From: Bacteroidota bacterium
Lineage (GTDB): Bacteria; Bacteroidota; Bacteroidia; Cytophagales; Cyclobacteriaceae
Length of the DNA: 64,000 bases
Assembly (NCBI GenBank): GCA_043758895.1
Contig: JAYVMP010000175.1
Span: 2,764-66,763 of the forward strand
Direction of reading: 5' to 3'
Of the stretch, positions 20,233-49,375 are shown one piece after another. The translations under genes and the position numbers were made by a program. Each line of letters opens with the position of its first letter. The first letter of the stretch is position 1. The notes under the pieces are model-generated. The model had not been told where the DNA came from. It worked only from the letters and a program-made list of their open reading frames with translations, and searched no databases.

Positions 20233-20300
20233 ATCCGTTACTGGTTATCTGTTAGTCGTTAATGGCTAAGGGCGATAACGAAGAACGATTACCTGATAAC
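20233..20300. repeat. 7-nt-period array with inverted arms
   Basis: CGTTACT GGTTATC TGTTAGT CGTTAAT, then GATAACG AAGAACG ATTACCT GATAACG. Confidence 0.65.
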
Positions 20301-23243: not shown

Positions 23244-25148
23244 TCAACGAAAGTACTTCTTCCACCACCATTGAAAAACAAGTAGCGCCCAGATGCGTGC
23301 GTGCACATCGCCAGGGTTGGATGAAAATAGTTGTTTTTTTAATTGTGCGATAGTCGAATAGTTAAAAATATTTTGCTCGAGGATAGATTTTTCTGAAAGC
23401 AGGTCGTCTTCAATCAACGATTTCATTTCTTTTCGAAGCCATTTCAACAACGGCACTTCAAAACCCTTCTTTGGTCGGTTATACAATTCTGAAGGAAGAA
23501 AATCTTTGAACGCGTCTTGCACGATTCGCTTTCGGATTTTCGGATTGATCTTAAATTCGCCAGGCAAGGAGAACGCGAAATTCACCAATTCGAAATCCAA
23601 AAATGGCGTGCGCACCTCCAGCCCGTTGGCCATGCTCATCAGATCCACTTTGGCAAGCATGTCGTTGGGCAATACCAAATTCATGTCGGTGAGTAGAATA
23701 TCGTTGATGGTTTCTTTGTCGGGAATGGGTTTTAATAAATTGTCTTTGAGCAGATCAAATTCATGTACATTAAAATTGCTCTTTGATTTCTCTGAGAATA
23801 ATTGATACGCTTTTTCGCGTGAAGCAAAACCAGCCCAATGCCAGTACCGTTCCTTCGAAGAAAGTTTCATGCCTTCAGCGAAGCGTTGCAACTGTCTTGA
23901 TTTGTTGCTAAAAAAATTGTTCCGCGACTGCGGAAAGTTCTTCCACAACGGCAACAACGAACCAGCCAGCGCCTCTTTCCAACCCGAATGAATAGCTCGG
24001 TAAAAAGCTGCGTGTTTGTTGTAGCCCGCCAACAGTTCATCTGCGCCATCACCCGAAAGTGCTACGGTGGCATGCTTGCGAGTCTCTTTGCTCAAAATAA
24101 AAGCATTGATGGCAGATGAATCGGCAAAAGGTTCATCGATGTAATCCAGAATAGAGCTTACATGTTCGTACAGATCATGGTTCGTCAACGAGAAAACGGT
24201 GTGTTCTGTTTTAAAATGCTTGGCGACCAATCTCGCATAGTTGGTTTCATCAAAAAACTTTTCATCGCGAAAACCAATGGAGAACGTGTGAAGATTAGCT
24301 TTATGTTTTGCTGCCAAACCTGTAACGACTGATGAATCAATTCCTCCACTTAAGAAAGTACCTAATGGTACATCGGCTATTAATCTGCGTTGGACAGAGG
24401 CCTCGAGGAGTTGTTTGAATTTTTCTTTAGCGTTATCGTAAGTCAACTGTCGACTATCGACTATCGACTGTTGACTAATTGAGTAATAACTTCTAACTTC
24501 TAACTTCCTGCTTCTAACTTCCAAAAAATGTCCCGGCAAAAGTTTTTTTACATTCTGAAAAATCGTGCGTGGCGCAGGGATGTAATTAAGTTGCAAGTAA
24601 GTATGCAATGAAGTGTAATCTAGTTCTTTCTCAATGCCATACGCGAGAATGGATTTCATCTCCGAAGCGAACAGAAACTTATCTTCATCAAACTGGTAAA
24701 GCAAAGGCTTTACGCCATAGCGATCGCGGGCGAGGAAAAAAGATTGCTCTTGTTTATCATAGATACAAAATGCGAAAAAACCATTCAGTTTATTCAGGCA
24801 CTTCTCCCCATCAAGAATAAAAAGTTTAAGAAGCACTTCTGTGTCTGAGTGAGAGAAGAAGGAAGTAACTCCTCTCACTTCCAATTCTTTTTTTAATTCT
24901 AAAAAATTAAAGATCTCGCCATTATAAATGATGCAGTACCGTTTCGTCTCGTCCCACATCGGCTGATGGGCTACGGCACTCGTATCGATGATGCTCAACC
25001 TGCGATGACCGAGGCCAACAAATTCGTCATGATAAATATCCTGGTTATTAGGCCCGCGTTTGGCGAGGGTTTGTGTGGCTGCAGTTATGTTGACCAGATT
25101 AAACTTGCCAACGAGGTTAAACGCAAAAATTCCGGTGATGCCGCACAT
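23244..25148 (-). CDS. asnB: Asparagine synthase (glutamine-hydrolysing)
   Basis: MCGITG Ntn start, GHRRLSIID, YNGEIFN, FLSGGIDSS, LSGDGADE, RTPFLD. Confidence 0.96.
   Translation of the reverse strand: MCGITGIFAFNLVGKFNLVNITAATQTLAKRGPNNQDIYHDEFVGLGHRRLSIIDTSAVAHQPMWDETKRYCIIYNGEIFNFLELKKELEVRGVTSFFSHSDTEVLLKLFILDGEKCLNKLNGFFAFCIYDKQEQSFFLARDRYGVKPLLYQFDEDKFLFASEMKSILAYGIEKELDYTSLHTYLQLNYIPAPRTIFQNVKKLLPGHFLEVRSRKLEVRSYYSISQQSIVDSRQLTYDNAKEKFKQLLEASVQRRLIADVPLGTFLSGGIDSSVVTGLAAKHKANLHTFSIGFRDEKFFDETNYARLVAKHFKTEHTVFSLTNHDLYEHVSSILDYIDEPFADSSAINAFILSKETRKHATVALSGDGADELLAGYNKHAAFYRAIHSGWKEALAGSLLPLWKNFPQSRNNFFSNKSRQLQRFAEGMKLSSKERYWHWAGFASREKAYQLFSEKSKSNFNVHEFDLLKDNLLKPIPDKETINDILLTDMNLVLPNDMLAKVDLMSMANGLEVRTPFLDFELVNFAFSLPGEFKINPKIRKRIVQDAFKDFLPSELYNRPKKGFEVPLLKWLRKEMKSLIEDDLLSEKSILEQNIFNYSTIAQLKKQLFSSNPGDVHARIWALLVFQWWWKKYFR
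24442..24521. repeat. Two five-unit heptamer arrays inside the asnB coding sequence
   Basis: GTCAACT GTCGACT ATCGACT ATCGACT GTTGACT (24442-24476) and TAACTTC x3 CTGCTTC TAACTTC (24487-24521). Confidence 0.85.
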
Positions 25149-44734: not shown

Positions 44735-46132
44735 TTAACCTTGTACGGTCGGTGCAAATTCATTTCGGATCCGACAAGCCGAAGGGTAGAGGTTATTCAT
44801 CCGGTTGCCGAGCAAGTTGGCCCAACCCAGCGGTGTGTTTTGATATTTCATGAGGGTAAATCCCAGAGCTGCACCCGATGGATTCAAAACATCTTTTCTT
44901 AAATACGCTATGGCCTGATCGTGGTCCAATTCAACGCTCGGAAAATTTTCAATTTTCAATTTTGTTGACACAGCAAGGGCATGGTCGGGAATAAGTTTAT
45001 CGTGCTTGAGGGTAGCGATGGCTGTTCCCTTTTGAATCACTTTTAAAACTTTTGTCAACAAGCTGATTTCGTAAATATAATTTTCTGGCAAGGCGATGAT
45101 TAGTTCTTCGTGGATGGCATACCCGGTTTCAATGGGATTCGCGACCCAGTTGGAAAGCCGCTCAATTATTTTTTTGTTGGGCGAAGTGAATATGTTTTTG
45201 CTGTGAACCCTGATTTCTTCTTGCTTCTCTTTCTTGCGCACCACGGAAATAAAAAAACCCTCTCCTTTTACACGATGTGGATAAAAACGGTAGCCGAAAA
45301 CATCGCCCATTTTTATTTCCTCAACACCCCAATCACTTTCAGCTCCTGCCTGGCTGGCAGGCAGGTTCAACTTTATGCTATCCGCTTTCTTTTCCCGCAC
45401 CAACCAACTTATGTTTTCTTCATTTTCTTTTTCACCGTAGGTACACGTACAATAAATCAAAATACCATTTTCCTTTAATGAAGGCCAGATTTGTTTTATG
45501 ATTCGCTGCTGTCGCAAGGCGCACAGGTCAACATTTTCTTTTGTCCATTGTTGCATGGCCTGCCTATCTTTTCGGAAAAGCCCCTCCCCAGAGCAAGGGG
45601 CATCCACCAAAATGACGTCAAAGAATCCTTCCAGCCGGTGAAAATCTTCGGGGTCATTGTTGGTAACTACCGTATTGCCATAACCCCACTTCTGAATATT
45701 TTCTGAAAGAACGGTAGCGCGCGACCGGATGGTTTCATTGGCTACAAGTAGCGATTGGTCAGCGAGCAAACTCAACAAGTGAGTTGATTTTCCTCCGGGG
45801 GCCGCACACAAGTCCAACACAGTTAAAGGCAGGGTCAAATCCACCGTCTGTTTCAGTGCCTGTTCGAGGAACATGGAACTTGCCTCTTGAACATAGTAGG
45901 CACCGGCATGGAATAGCGGATCGAACGTAAACGAGGGCCGTTGCTTTAAATAATAACCAAAATCTGTCCACCGCACTTTTTCAAATTCTTTTGCTGAACT
46001 TTTTTTTGGATTGATCCGGATACTGGTGGGCGAGGGCTGTGCGTGCGCGGAGATAAATTTTTGCCAATCATTTTGGAGGCGCAGTTGCATTTGCTGGGCA
46101 AATGCGGGGGGAAAGTCGAAGCGATCAGCCAT
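44735..46132 (-). CDS. RsmB/NOP2 family rRNA m5C methyltransferase (RsmF-like)
   Basis: YVQEASSM, DLCAAPGGKST, VDAPCSGEG, YCTCT, GEGFF, C-terminal PUA-like region. Confidence 0.93.
   Translation of the reverse strand: MADRFDFPPAFAQQMQLRLQNDWQKFISAHAQPSPTSIRINPKKSSAKEFEKVRWTDFGYYLKQRPSFTFDPLFHAGAYYVQEASSMFLEQALKQTVDLTLPLTVLDLCAAPGGKSTHLLSLLADQSLLVANETIRSRATVLSENIQKWGYGNTVVTNNDPEDFHRLEGFFDVILVDAPCSGEGLFRKDRQAMQQWTKENVDLCALRQQRIIKQIWPSLKENGILIYCTCTYGEKENEENISWLVREKKADSIKLNLPASQAGAESDWGVEEIKMGDVFGYRFYPHRVKGEGFFISVVRKKEKQEEIRVHSKNIFTSPNKKIIERLSNWVANPIETGYAIHEELIIALPENYIYEISLLTKVLKVIQKGTAIATLKHDKLIPDHALAVSTKLKIENFPSVELDHDQAIAYLRKDVLNPSGAALGFTLMKYQNTPLGWANLLGNRMNNLYPSACRIRNEFAPTVQG
45345..45365. 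repeat. 21-bp palindrome in-frame within the methyltransferase (encodes LPASQAG)
   Basis: CCTGCCTG-GCTGG-CAGGCAGG. Confidence 0.75.
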
Positions 46133-47744: not shown

Positions 47745-49340
47745 ATGTCGGCATCACCCTCTTCTGCATTGCCTACCGGTTTCGCGCGGGCCATCATTGT
47801 GATCACCACGATATCGGCCGCGATCATGGAGTTGATTGATACGTCCATCGTCAATGTGGCCTTGTCAGATATCAGTGGAAACCTGGGGGCAACTATTGAA
47901 GATACCTCATGGGTGGTGACGGCTTACGCGATTGCAAACGTGATAATCATTCCGCTCACGGGTTTTTTTGCCAAGTTATTTGGCCGGAAAAAATATTACA
48001 TCGTATCCATTTTTATTTTTACCATCTCTTCGTACATGTGCGGTCAGGCAGGAAGCCTGATCTCATTGGTGATCTGGCGCTTTATTCAAGGCATAGGGGG
48101 AGGTGCATTGCTTTCTACTTCGCAGGGAATTTTGTTTGATGCTTTCGAGCCGGCCAAGCGCCCGATTGCCTCCGCCATGTTTGGAATGGGCATTGTGCTC
48201 GGGCCGACTATCGGGCCCATCTTAGGCGGTGTCATTGTCGATAATTATTCGTGGCCTCTCATTTTTTACATCAATATCCCATTTGGGATCGTGGCTACCA
48301 TCCTCACGTTGCGCTATATCAGACGGACGGAAGATGAAAAGAACCCTAACCGTCAAAAGCCGGTGATTGATTTTCTGGGTATTTCTCTTTTGGCTGTTGG
48401 CGTAGGGAGTTTGGAGTATGTGCTGGAGAAGGGGCAATCGGACGATTGGTTTGAGGACACCACGATCTTAATCCTTTCGATTGCTGCCGCTGTGGGGTTG
48501 ATTACTTTTATTTATCGCGAACTCACTGCCGAGAAGCCCATGATCAATTTGCAGGTAATGAAGCGAAGGAACCTGTGGGCCAGCAACGTGCTCACTTTTT
48601 CGGTAGGCTTCGGCATGTTTGGTTCGGTATTTATTTTTCCCGTGTTGGTGCAGCGCATTTTGGGCTACACACCAACCGATGCGGGCATCGGGTTAGTGCC
48701 GAGTGCCATCGCAGCAATTTTCTGCATGCCCATCATCGGCCGTAGGCTTGGGGCTGGTACACCCCCGTTACTTTTTGTGGTCATCGGTTTTTTGTTTTTT
48801 ATTTTGCATGGCTACACTTCTTCGCTCGTTACACCCGATGTAGGGCTTCCCTTTTTCTTTTGGACACAAATATTTCGGGGGATAGGAACAGCCTGCCTAA
48901 CGGTGCCATTGATCAATCAAGCAGTAGTAGGACTTACGCCACAAGAAATGCCGAGTGGAATTGCGCTCACCAATATGCTTCGGCAATTGGGTGGCGCATT
49001 TGGTATAGCGGTGATGAACACCTACCTGACACAGCGGTATGCCGTGCACCGGAATGACTTAGTGAGCAATTTGCAGCTATCCGATCCGAACCTGATTCAG
49101 CGGCTGTCGCAATACCAGGTTGGTGCGGTGAATGCGGGCATCAACTCAACCCAGTCAACCGATTTTAGTTATAAACTATTGGACTTGGCGGTGACCAAGC
49201 AAAGTTTTTTGATGGCTTATGCCGATACGTTTATATTGATCGCGCTCTTTTTTGTGTGCGTGATCCCGTTCATGTTTTTGCTGCGAACCCAGAAAGTGAG
49301 CAAAGCCACAATGCAAAAAATTTCAGAAGAAAGTCATTAG
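47745..49340 (+). CDS. DHA2 family MFS efflux permease (EmrB-like)
   Basis: 14-TM; MELIDTSIVNVAL, SWVVTAY, RFIQGIGGG, GPTIGPILGG, RQLGGAFG. Confidence 0.95.
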   Translation: MSASPSSALPTGFARAIIVITTISAAIMELIDTSIVNVALSDISGNLGATIEDTSWVVTAYAIANVIIIPLTGFFAKLFGRKKYYIVSIFIFTISSYMCGQAGSLISLVIWRFIQGIGGGALLSTSQGILFDAFEPAKRPIASAMFGMGIVLGPTIGPILGGVIVDNYSWPLIFYINIPFGIVATILTLRYIRRTEDEKNPNRQKPVIDFLGISLLAVGVGSLEYVLEKGQSDDWFEDTTILILSIAAAVGLITFIYRELTAEKPMINLQVMKRRNLWASNVLTFSVGFGMFGSVFIFPVLVQRILGYTPTDAGIGLVPSAIAAIFCMPIIGRRLGAGTPPLLFVVIGFLFFILHGYTSSLVTPDVGLPFFFWTQIFRGIGTACLTVPLINQAVVGLTPQEMPSGIALTNMLRQLGGAFGIAVMNTYLTQRYAVHRNDLVSNLQLSDPNLIQRLSQYQVGAVNAGINSTQSTDFSYKLLDLAVTKQSFLMAYADTFILIALFFVCVIPFMFLLRTQKVSKATMQKISEESH

Positions 49341-49375
49341 GATTTACGGTTTACGATTTTTGATTTACGATTTTA
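49341..49375. repeat. Heptamer array
   Basis: GATTTAC GGTTTAC GATTTTT GATTTAC GATTTTA. Confidence 0.75.

What the first reader, a model, noticed from the sequence alone, without database searches (positions are those of the whole stretch)
24442..24521. Heptamer arrays written into the asnB reading frame
Seen: two adjacent 35-bp arrays of five heptamers each, of the same style as the intergenic ones, inside an intact 634-aa ORF and read as LEVRSRKLEVRSYY and SQQSIVDSRQLT. The first array is self-complementary at its ends (AGTCAAC/GTTGACT). They fall near the junction of the glutaminase and synthetase domains. Inference: the repeat-generating process also acts on coding DNA and survives where frame and function tolerate it. 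From memory, homologues are of similar length here, which would mean overwriting rather than insertion; that needs an alignment.
Basis: partly seen in the sequence, partly recalled or inferred. Interest (0 to 1): 0.7.

Follow-up and report, generated by a model that had tools for sequence, protein, structure and literature searches.

The report
Heptamer repeats rewriting protein-coding loops
Two runs of 7-base repeats really do sit in frame inside an intact asparagine synthase gene of a Cytophagales bacterium, replacing rather than lengthening a beta-hairpin and a domain linker, and the same thing happens in other housekeeping genes of this group, which shows that a 7-base repeat-homogenising process keeps rewriting tolerant protein segments.

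Summary
Window 24442-24476 and 24487-24521 hold two imperfect five-unit heptamer arrays, (AGTCGAY)5 and (GAAGTTA)5 on the coding strand. They lie in frame in an intact 634-aa asparagine synthase gene (TIGR01536).

They are not chance. In this 3.3-Mb Cytophagales MAG, period 7 gives 55 arrays against 9 or fewer for any other period. A fixed-window scan finds 16 lag-7 arrays in coding DNA and none at lags 5, 8, 10, 11 or 13.

They are not a by-product of the peptide. Synonymous-codon resampling gives P about 1e-4 for one array and below 5e-6 for the other.

They are not insertions. In 101 orthologues the hairpin has invariant length, and the linker differs by about one residue from array-free orthologues.

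Relatives carry arrays at the same place and in the same register, but with different units (TCAATTG, GCAGTAG, ACAGTCC, CGACCAT). Synonymous sites are near saturation, so homogenisation must be ongoing. ValS, LeuS and IcmF show the same length-neutral pattern. In the free-length DsbD linker an array does add residues.

Best reading: these are heptanucleotide simple-sequence repeats kept periodic by out-of-register (7-nt) slippage or conversion, filtered by frame, length and stop avoidance. The molecular mechanism is inferred, not shown. I rate it a new variant of a known kind, of moderate interest.

The parts
23244..25148 (-). Intact 634-aa asparagine synthase (glutamine-hydrolysing) gene, asnB type, which hosts both arrays.
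   Evidence: ORF list. Pfam GATase_7 at residues 48-169 and Asn_synthase at 244-628. NCBIfam TIGR01536 scores 466.5 bits against a cutoff of 267.1. PDB relatives are 7YLZ and E. coli AsnB 1CT9.
24487..24521 (-). Array 2: GAAGTTA GAAGCAG GAAGTTA GAAGTTA GAAGTTA, codons 210-221 (EVRSRKLEVRSY). It forms the last beta-hairpin of the glutaminase domain.
   Evidence: TRF gives period 7, 5.0 copies. Codon map. Predicted strands E207-212 and E215-220. Hairpin length is invariant in 101 orthologues. Synonymous resampling gives P=9.5e-5. A perfect array would put TAG in frame exactly where unit 2 deviates.
24442..24476 (-). Array 1: AGTCAAC AGTCGAT AGTCGAT AGTCGAC AGTTGAC, codons 225-236 (SQQSIVDSRQLT). 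It lies in the interdomain linker.
   Evidence: TRF gives period 7, 4.6 copies. 24 of 28 lag-7 matches. Synonymous resampling gives P below 5e-6. pLDDT is below 50 at residues 228-231. The linker length is within about 1 aa of array-free orthologues.
24477..24486 (-). 10-nt spacer between the two arrays (TTACTCAATT, part of the conserved YY-S-I).
   Evidence: Y221, Y222 and I224 are invariant or nearly invariant in the orthologue alignment.
24441..24476 (.). Near-palindrome formed by array 1, with arms at 24441-24453 and 24464-24476.
   Evidence: the repeat finder I4: 13 nt, 92% complementary. The RNA fold of the 106-nt context gives -21.7 kcal/mol, z=-2.0. This is a by-product of the GTCGAC core, because relatives with a CGACCAT unit lack it.
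13490..13522 (.). Intergenic heptamer array of the same class (ATTCTAA x4.7).
   Evidence: TRF; sequence.
49337..49373 (.). Intergenic heptamer array of the same class (TTACGAT x5.3).
   Evidence: TRF; sequence.
10576..10625 (.). Intergenic degenerate heptamer array (GATTTAG x6.9), next to a MITE.
   Evidence: TRF; sequence.
20233..20300 (.). Intergenic pair of inverted degenerate heptamer arms (a xxGTTAx arm followed by a xTAACxx arm).
   Evidence: TRF period 14; sequence.

Best explanation
The two arrays are heptanucleotide simple-sequence repeats of the kind that litters this genome and its relatives. They sit in two tolerant segments of AsnB: the last beta-hairpin of the glutaminase domain and the interdomain linker.

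They are kept periodic by a DNA-level homogenising process with a 7-nt register. The most likely form is transient out-of-register (plus or minus one unit) strand misalignment during replication or repair. Copying, or mismatch correction of the slipped duplex, then makes neighbouring units alike. This is concerted evolution.

Selection removes every outcome that changes the frame, changes the length of a length-constrained element, or creates a stop codon. In this gene, therefore, only length-neutral 'overwriting' is visible, and the deviating units are those that avoid stops. The encoded 7-residue peptide repeats (LEVRSRK/LEVRSYY) are by-products of the DNA process.

Shown:
- the arrays are real and far above chance;
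- the periodicity is at the DNA level, not the peptide level;
- there is no length change relative to array-free orthologues;
- relatives carry arrays in the same register with different units;
- the arrays persist beyond synonymous saturation;
- the pattern is repeated in ValS, LeuS and IcmF, and an array adds length in DsbD.

Inferred:
- the molecular mechanism (slippage or conversion);
- why the step is 7 nt.
For: Period 7 dominates the genome: 55 arrays against 9 or fewer for any other period. CDS arrays number 16 at lag 7 and 0 at lags 5, 8, 10, 11 and 13. Loci from relatives show the same lag-7 excess.

Given the peptide, the observed periodicity needs rare codons (AGA, AGG, TTA, AGT, CGA, ATA, GTC). 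Resampling gives P=9.5e-5, below 5e-6, and below 5e-6 for array 2, array 1 and both together.

The hairpin has the same length in all 101 orthologues, and the linker is within about 1 aa.

The arrays occupy the same 35-nt register in more than 20 species but use different units: GAAGTTA, AAAGTTG, ACAGTCC, GCAGTAG and TCAATTG in the hairpin, and AGTCGAC, CGACCAT, CCAACAA and CTATCAA in the linker. The linker array marks a 100%-supported clade of 16 species in the tree.

L001 and its sister L031 are 90% identical outside the arrays and 29% identical inside. Four-fold sites differ at 0.51-0.70. A perfect array left to decay neutrally for that long keeps at least 22 of 28 matches with P about 6e-4, yet L001 has 22 and 24.

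A perfect (GAAGTTA)n array would read E V R S * in this frame. Two of the three deviations from the consensus lie in that codon. In array 1, T at unit position 7 occurs only in the two units where T+AG is out of frame.

Replicates in other genes:
- ValS carries AAATTCA, CACTCGA, CAGTCAA, CATCCAG or AATCTAA at one site in five species, with length 14-18 aa against 15 aa in array-free orthologues.
- LeuS in G000 has four perfect ATCCAAA units at the same length as a relative's decayed ATTCAAA array.
- The IcmF linker is 78-80 aa in all genus members and in most other families.
- DsbD in G000 is 13 aa longer than in its closest relative, and the extra residues are the AATTCAA array.

Literature: heptanucleotides are the commonest long SSR class in many bacteria, and slippage with a 7-nt polymerase contact has been proposed (Mrazek 2007, as summarised in PMC4679880; PMC4692102).
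Against: No direct evidence for slippage or conversion exists.

The arrays are imperfect and short (about 5 units), which is not the profile of a fast-slipping microsatellite.

Unit types do not follow the species tree strictly. L031, the sister of L001, carries the ACAGTCC type that is shared with L035, L092 and L038. That could mean recombination between species or repeated de novo writing rather than gradual drift.

One unit family (ATTCAAA-like) makes up 42% of the arrays in this genome and is sporadically amplified in unrelated Cytophagales. Pure slippage from random seeds does not predict this.

How an array first spreads over unique coding sequence without an intermediate that changes length is not explained.
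Confidence: 0.62

Rival explanations
1. A dedicated, length-preserving 'writing' activity, for example a repair polymerase that fills a short gap by copying a 7-nt template over and over. It would lay down whole arrays of about 35 nt at once, independently in each lineage, at sites that tolerate them.
For: Different, sometimes unrelated units occupy the same site in sister species, and their distribution conflicts in part with the tree. Arrays are length-neutral inside a structured hairpin, where an intermediate of plus or minus 7 aa seems costly. A restricted vocabulary of units recurs across genes and species: GTCGACA in AsnB of G000 and IcmF of G018, and CGACCAT in AsnB of L037 and IcmF of G001. 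One unit shows sporadic genome-specific bursts.
Against: Divergence inside the arrays (0.29-0.62) is no higher than at four-fold sites (0.51-0.70). Drift of the unit plus homogenisation is therefore enough, and wholesale replacement is not required. Array lengths form a decaying tail from the detection threshold and show no characteristic size. Where length is free, the array adds length. No candidate enzyme was identified.
Confidence: 0.12
2. In-frame insertion of a repeat cassette or mini-element (as with Rickettsia palindromic elements), followed by a compensating deletion of neighbouring codons.
For: Orthologues do carry in-frame palindromic inserts in this same linker, in L002, L023 and L026. 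The DsbD array is a net insertion. MITEs of this genome lie within heptamer arrays.
Against: The hairpin has exactly the same length in 101 orthologues, and the array sits in the same codon register in more than 20 species. There are no terminal inverted repeats, target duplications or shared element sequence. The units differ between loci and between species.
Confidence: 0.08
3. Phase-variation switch: the heptamer tract lets asnB be turned off and on by frameshifts of plus or minus one unit.
For: Intragenic heptanucleotide repeats are used in this way in some pathogens (literature cited in PMC2651432, listed). Seven is not a multiple of three, so a slip of one unit shifts the frame.
Against: The tracts are imperfect (78-84% matches, and at most three identical units in a row). 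All 101 orthologues are in frame. The same arrays occur in essential single-copy genes (ValS, LeuS), where switching off would be lethal, and in intergenic DNA.
Confidence: 0.04
4. Protein-level selection or chance: the hairpin simply favours a 7-residue repeat such as LEVRSRK/LEVRSYY, and the DNA periodicity follows from it.
For: The family consensus already has L-K/E-V at both strand starts, 7 residues apart. The E/R pattern could form cross-strand salt bridges (inference).
Against: Synonymous resampling rejects this at P of 1e-4 or lower. The residues that repeat (212 and 219) are not cross-strand partners. Array-free orthologues keep the fold without the repeat. The control lags are empty genome-wide.
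Confidence: 0.03

Closest known systems
Heptanucleotide long simple-sequence repeats of prokaryotes (Mrazek, Guo and Shah 2007, as summarised in PMC4679880 and PMC4692102)
   Same: Tandem 7-nt units with many different unit sequences. Period 7 is over-represented against all other periods. The arrays are mostly intergenic. Slippage with a roughly 7-nt polymerase contact was proposed as the cause.
   Different: That work reports that units in multiples of three are the ones found in genes. Here, non-triplet arrays sit in frame in conserved enzymes, are length-neutral, and are shared in one register by many species with turnover of the unit.
STRR heptamers of heterocystous cyanobacteria (Mazel et al. 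1990, from memory; the three tandem heptanucleotides of Calothrix PCC 7601 are cited in PMC4692102), TAACTGA repeats of Beggiatoaceae, Cyanobacteria and five Bacteroidetes (PMC4679880), and GGGAATC repeats of Xanthomonas (PMC4692102)
   Same: Short heptamer arrays of a few units, often next to start or stop codons, sometimes as inverted pairs, with a sporadic phylogenetic distribution. Other heptamer repeats were noted in Bacteroidetes spacers.
   Different: Those systems are defined by one or a few fixed units and are described as under-represented in, or excluded from, coding regions. Here the units are diverse and the focus is on translated arrays.
Cryptic simplicity and concerted evolution by slipped-strand mispairing (Tautz, Trick and Dover 1986; Levinson and Gutman 1987; from memory)
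   Same: Slippage-like turnover creates fast-evolving, repetitive segments inside coding regions. The units are homogenised within a species and differ between species.
   Different: That work described mainly eukaryotic genes and triplet or mixed motifs with length change. Here the period is strictly 7 nt, the genes are bacterial housekeeping genes, and there is no length change.
In-frame repeat or palindromic element insertions such as Rickettsia palindromic elements (from memory, and as named in the earlier scan notes)
   Same: Repeat DNA is translated as part of an otherwise normal enzyme, at surface loops.
   Different: Those elements add residues and share one element sequence. The asnB arrays add none, and no element sequence is shared between loci.

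Membership tests
Heptanucleotide long simple-sequence repeats (LSSR) | Head-to-tail tandem copies of a 7-nt unit (three or more to four or more copies) | tested here: met
   TRF gives 4.6 and 5.0 copies at 84% and 78% matches. Lag-7 matches are 24 of 28 and 22 of 28.
Heptanucleotide long simple-sequence repeats (LSSR) | Genome-wide excess of period 7 over other periods, mostly in intergenic DNA | tested here: met
   55 arrays against 9 or fewer for other periods. Density is about 5.5 per Mb in CDS and roughly 40-60 per Mb in intergenic DNA.
Heptanucleotide long simple-sequence repeats (LSSR) | Copy-number change by slippage between strains or species | tested here: inconclusive
   The DsbD linker in G000 is 13 aa longer than in G018, and the extra residues are the AATTCAA array. 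No length change is seen in AsnB, ValS, LeuS or IcmF. Read-level data were unavailable.
Cyanobacterial STRR / TAACTGA / GGGAATC repeat families | One fixed, family-defining unit sequence | tested here: not met
   The units here are GAAGTTA and AGTCGAY. The genome's commonest unit is ATTCAAA-like, at 42% of arrays. None of the published units dominates.
Phase-variable intragenic SSR (contingency locus) | A perfect repeat tract, with frameshifted alleles among relatives | tested here: not met
   The tracts are imperfect. All 101 orthologues are intact and in frame. Population reads could not be tested.
In-frame mobile mini-element insertion (RPE-like) | Extra residues relative to orthologues, and a shared element sequence at many loci | tested here: not met
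   The hairpin length is invariant and the linker is within about 1 aa. The units differ between loci and species.
Asparagine synthase (glutamine-hydrolysing), TIGR01536 | An N-terminal class-II glutaminase domain starting at Cys2, plus an Asn_synthase domain, with a score above the curated cutoff | tested here: met
   The protein starts MCG. Pfam finds GATase_7 and Asn_synthase. TIGR01536 scores 466.5 bits against a cutoff of 267.1. Enzyme specificity was not tested: TIGR03108 also scores 489 bits, but that is below its own cutoff.

The most novel reading that the evidence does not exclude
Cytophagales of the Ohtaekwangia/Chryseolinea group may possess an active DNA-rewriting process with a fixed 7-nt register. 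If the unchecked earlier scan notes are right, CPR bacteria, Omnitrophota and cyanobacteria may have it too. A candidate mechanism is a repair or replication polymerase that realigns its primer by exactly one heptamer. Such a process would repeatedly overwrite patches of about 35 nt without changing their length. It would act in essential genes, and would serve as a built-in generator of hypervariable protein loops and of spacer hairpins.
Probability: 0.12. Interest if true: 0.85.

Novelty: new variant of a known kind. Interest (0 to 1): 0.55.

Why it matters
Non-triplet microsatellites are normally thought to be excluded from genes, or to serve there as on/off switches. Here a 7-nt repeat process demonstrably shapes the amino-acid sequence of conserved enzymes (AsnB, ValS, LeuS, IcmF). 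It does so without breaking them and without changing their length, and it stays active for longer than it takes synonymous sites to saturate.

This gives a clean natural system for separating mutation pressure from selection: one register, dozens of species, and stop-avoiding units. It also allows the old proposal to be tested that a 7-nt polymerase-DNA contact sets the slippage step. It explains local hypervariability (29% identity inside against 90% outside between sister species), which would otherwise be read as positive selection or misalignment.

For annotation, it warns that 7-residue peptide repeats such as NSKFKIQ, VDSRQLT or PSTIDH in bacterial proteins can be footprints of DNA repeats rather than functional motifs.

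Tried and rejected
(1) The first DNA alignment of the genome-search loci mixed strands, because those loci keep the orientation of their contig. It was useless as an alignment, but it supplied the sequences, and everything was redone from oriented CDSs.

(2) A scan whose window scaled with the lag was unfair to long lags. It was replaced by a fixed 28-comparison window.

There was therefore no read-level test for plus or minus 7 or 21 nt variants, conversion alleles or frameshift alleles.

(4) A characteristic array size of about 35 bp was considered as a hint of a patch-filling enzyme. It was rejected because the lengths form a tail that decays from the detection threshold.

(5) A functional RNA hairpin was considered for array 1. 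The palindrome follows from the GTCGAC core, the fold z-score is only -2.0, and relatives with other units lack it.

(6) Protein-level covariation in the hairpin was considered. The repeated residues (212 and 219) are not cross-strand partners, and resampling rejects a peptide-level cause.

(7) The enrichment of mismatches in would-be stop codons is partly forced, because the ORFs are intact. It is used only to explain which units deviate, not as an independent test.

(8) The literature searches did not retrieve Mrazek 2007 or Elhai 2008 themselves. Their content is cited only as summarised in PMC4679880 and PMC4692102, or from memory.
Full report
**What is there.** The + strand at 24442-24521 carries two runs of five heptamers separated by 10 nt. 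On the coding (minus) strand they read GAAGTTA GAAGCAG GAAGTTA GAAGTTA GAAGTTA (24521 down to 24487) and AGTCAAC AGTCGAT AGTCGAT AGTCGAC AGTTGAC (24476 down to 24442). TRF reports period 7 with 5.0 and 4.6 copies, at 78% and 84% matches.

Both runs lie in the intact 634-aa ORF 23244..25148. They encode codons 210-221 (EVRSRKLEVRSY) and 225-236 (SQQSIVDSRQLT). The protein has a class-II glutaminase domain (Pfam GATase_7, residues 48-169) and an Asn_synthase domain (244-628). It passes NCBIfam TIGR01536, asparagine synthase (glutamine-hydrolysing), and aligns with E. coli AsnB 1CT9 and with 7YLZ through this region with only 2-4-residue gaps.

An AlphaFold model built from 30 orthologues (mean pLDDT 78.7) puts array 2 on a beta-hairpin (strands 207-212 and 215-220). 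It puts array 1 on a low-confidence segment (pLDDT below 50 at 228-231) just before the first long helix of the synthetase domain.

**More than chance.** The window lies in a 3.29-Mb, 287-contig, 44% G+C assembly. Its AsnB orthologues are MAGs and isolates labelled Cytophagales, Cyclobacteriaceae, Ohtaekwangia, Chryseolinea and Chryseosolibacter.

- TRF on the whole genome finds 55 arrays with at least four copies at period 7, against 9 or fewer at any other period.
- With a fixed window of 28 comparisons and at least 21 matches, lag 7 gives 16 arrays in coding DNA, 15 in intergenic DNA and 7 at ORF edges. Lags 5, 8, 10, 11 and 13 give none in coding DNA. The crude gene set covers 88.9% of the genome.
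- The arrays are thus about ten times denser between genes, but the coding ones are far above background.
- The same lag-7 excess appears in about 470 kb of loci from about 100 related genomes.

**DNA level, not peptide level.** I kept the peptide fixed and redrew synonymous codons from the genome's own usage.

| Segment | Lag-7 matches on resampling (mean) | Observed | P |
|---|---|---|---|
| Array 2 | 10.6 of 32 | 23 | 9.5e-5 |
| Array 1 | 11.4 of 32 | 24 | below 5e-6 |
| Both together | 25.9 of 77 | 51 | below 5e-6 |

The arrays depend on minority codons: AGA and AGG for Arg, TTA for Leu, AGT for Ser, and CGA, ATA and GTC. The 7-residue peptide repeat is therefore the consequence of the DNA repeat, not its cause.

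**Replacement, not insertion.** In 101 distinct orthologues (49-88% identity) the segment PGH...YY that holds array 2 has exactly the same length everywhere. The linker that holds array 1 is within about one residue of the array-free consensus IPYDxxxAESNPISYDDAK.

**A shared, concertedly evolving state.** I printed the hairpin DNA in blocks of seven starting from codon 210. More than 20 species then show arrays in the same register, but with different units:

- GAAGTTA (own genome)
- GAAGTTA/AAAGTTR (L002, L036, L040)
- ACAGTCC/ATAGTCG (L031, L035, L038, L092, L034, L005)
- GCAGTAG (L037, L051)
- TCAATTG (L045, L046, L047, L050, L064, L073)

The linker shows AGTCGAC (own genome, L034), CGACCAT (L037, L038, L092), CTATCAA (L005), CCAACAA (L040, L036) and ACAACGA-like (L004). 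More distant orthologues are at background, with 13 or fewer matches in 28.

On a tree built without these columns:
- The linker array marks a 100%-supported clade of 16 species.
- The hairpin array is wider but patchy.
- Unit types only partly follow the tree.

Between the own genome and its sister L031, the protein is 90% identical outside the arrays and 29% identical inside. Four-fold degenerate sites differ at 0.51-0.70 even for the closest relatives. A perfect array decaying neutrally over the L001-L031 distance would keep at least 22 of 28 matches with P about 6e-4, yet both arrays here have 22 and 24. Periodicity is therefore being renewed within lineages. Divergence inside the arrays (0.29-0.62) does not exceed that of four-fold sites, so neutral drift of the unit plus homogenisation is sufficient. 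Wholesale replacement is not required, though it is not excluded.

**Selection as the filter.** A perfect (GAAGTTA)n array would read E-V-R-S-stop in this frame. The one deviating unit (GAAGCAG) supplies AGG at exactly that codon.

In array 1, unit position 7 is T only in the two units where T+AG is out of frame, and it is C where TAG would be in frame. Across 21 strong arrays in the orthologues, 9 have a consensus unit that would create in-frame stops. The deviations are concentrated there: 16 of 30 nt, against 97 of 705 elsewhere. This is partly forced by the ORFs being intact. Stop-free units such as AATTCAA and ATCCAAA occur as nearly perfect arrays in DsbD and LeuS.

**Replication in other genes.** Besides asnB, this genome has internal arrays in ValS, LeuS, an IcmF-type fused mutase, DsbD and a YfhO-type membrane protein.

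- **ValS.** Five species carry five different units (AAATTCA, CACTCGA, CAGTCAA, CATCCAG, AATCTAA) at one site before the QDxDVLDTW motif. The segment is 14-18 residues, against 15 in array-free orthologues.
- **LeuS.** The genus shares an NSKFKIQN-type peptide, a decayed ATTCAAA array. The own genome has four perfect ATCCAAA units at the same length, and other families have an unrelated loop of about the same length.
- **IcmF.** The linker is 78-80 residues in all genus members and in most other families. Arrays are present in four species, with units GACAGTC, TGACCAT and ACAACGA.
- **DsbD.** Only in the DsbD linker, whose length varies freely (94-129 residues), does the own genome's AATTCAA array appear as about 13 extra residues relative to the closest relative.

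Length neutrality is thus imposed by selection, not by the process.

**Mechanism.** The best-supported reading is that these are heptanucleotide long simple-sequence repeats. They are homogenised by out-of-register (7-nt) misalignment during replication or repair, that is, by concerted evolution. Purifying selection then removes frameshifts, length changes in constrained elements, and stops.

The literature describes heptamers as the commonest long SSR class in many bacteria, with slippage tied to a roughly 7-nt polymerase contact as the proposed cause. It also describes such repeats as mainly intergenic (PMC4679880; PMC4692102). The molecular step is inferred here, not shown.

Several points fit less well:
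- Unit types are partly incongruent with the tree.
- A limited unit vocabulary recurs across genes.
- ATTCAAA-like units make up 42% of arrays.
- (AATTCAA)4 is sporadically amplified in unrelated Cytophagales: 14 hits here, 57 and 40 in two other families, and none in most genomes.

These points leave room for a more active writing process. I give that about 12%.

**Rivals.**
- In-frame insertion of an element plus a compensating deletion is unlikely for the hairpin (invariant length, one register), but is plausible in free linkers.
- A phase-variation switch is unlikely. The tracts are imperfect, every orthologue is in frame, and the same arrays sit in ValS and LeuS.
- Peptide-level selection or chance is rejected.

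**Earlier scan notes.** Notes from this scan describe in-frame heptamer arrays in housekeeping genes of CPR bacteria, Omnitrophota, Dehalococcoidia and others. One note reports arrays 'rewritten' faster than the surrounding gene. These notes agree with the present reading, but they are unchecked AI notes and are not used as evidence. A note on this genome describes the intergenic arrays, and I saw the same sequences.

**Verdict.** The kind of repeat is known. Its length-neutral, register-conserved, concertedly evolving presence inside a structured hairpin and in several essential enzymes is, as far as I could find, not described for bacteria. I rate it a new variant of a known kind, with interest 0.55.

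Noticed in passing
own genome, contig C150 3994-7404 (outside the window); also locus L168: The leucyl-tRNA synthetase gene carries an in-frame insert of about 150 aa that, from memory, resembles a DUF559/Vsr-like endonuclease domain (…ILWEKLRNSKLGHKIRRQHVIDIFIADFVCLDRRLVIEVDGEYH…). The insert is flanked by SPSPVERG and SPGEGWGEA. A near-identical insert sits in the LeuS of another genus member.
   Followed up: no
loci L002, L023 and L026 (asnB orthologues), in the linker and one other loop: These orthologues carry in-frame palindromic inserts: CCCGATAGCTATCGGG in L002, CCCCCGAAGGGG…CCCCTTCGGGGG in L023, and GTAGAGACGTTGCATACAACGTCTCTAC in L026. Small hairpin elements therefore also land in the tolerant loops of this gene.
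   Followed up: partly
whole own genome; window examples at 44944-44963 and 9232-9250: ATTCAAA-like units make up 26 of 62 heptamer arrays. Many of them sit at or just upstream of ORF starts; the 'edge' and N-terminal cases include C140, C274, C1 and C181. (AATTCAA)4 is sporadic across Cytophagales: 14 hits here, 57 and 40 in two other families, and none in most genomes. A role in promoters or translation initiation is possible.
   Followed up: partly
window 10625-10723 and 16990-17085: Two copies of a roughly 90-bp MITE with AATGTCGTTTCCTTA…TAAGGAAACGACATT ends lie inside or beside degenerate heptamer or octamer arrays in the dcw-cluster spacers.
   Followed up: no
window 20233-20300; own genome contig C18 23011-23119: Intergenic arrays often come as inverted pairs, with unit U repeated and then its reverse complement repeated (for example TAGGAGT… then CTAACTC…). 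Such pairs could fold as long imperfect hairpins.
   Followed up: no
loci L170 and L172 (IcmF) compared with window 24442-24476 and L037 (AsnB): The same heptamer units, and hence the same peptides, recur in unrelated genes of different species. GTCGACA gives VDSRQLT in AsnB here and in IcmF of G018. CGACCAT gives PSTIDH/Y in AsnB of L037 and TIDH…TID in IcmF of G001.
   Followed up: partly
loci L131 and L194 (genome G012): The ValS and IcmF matches in this relative contain in-frame stops (1 TGA and 1 TAA each). This suggests assembly errors or pseudogenes in that MAG.
   Followed up: no
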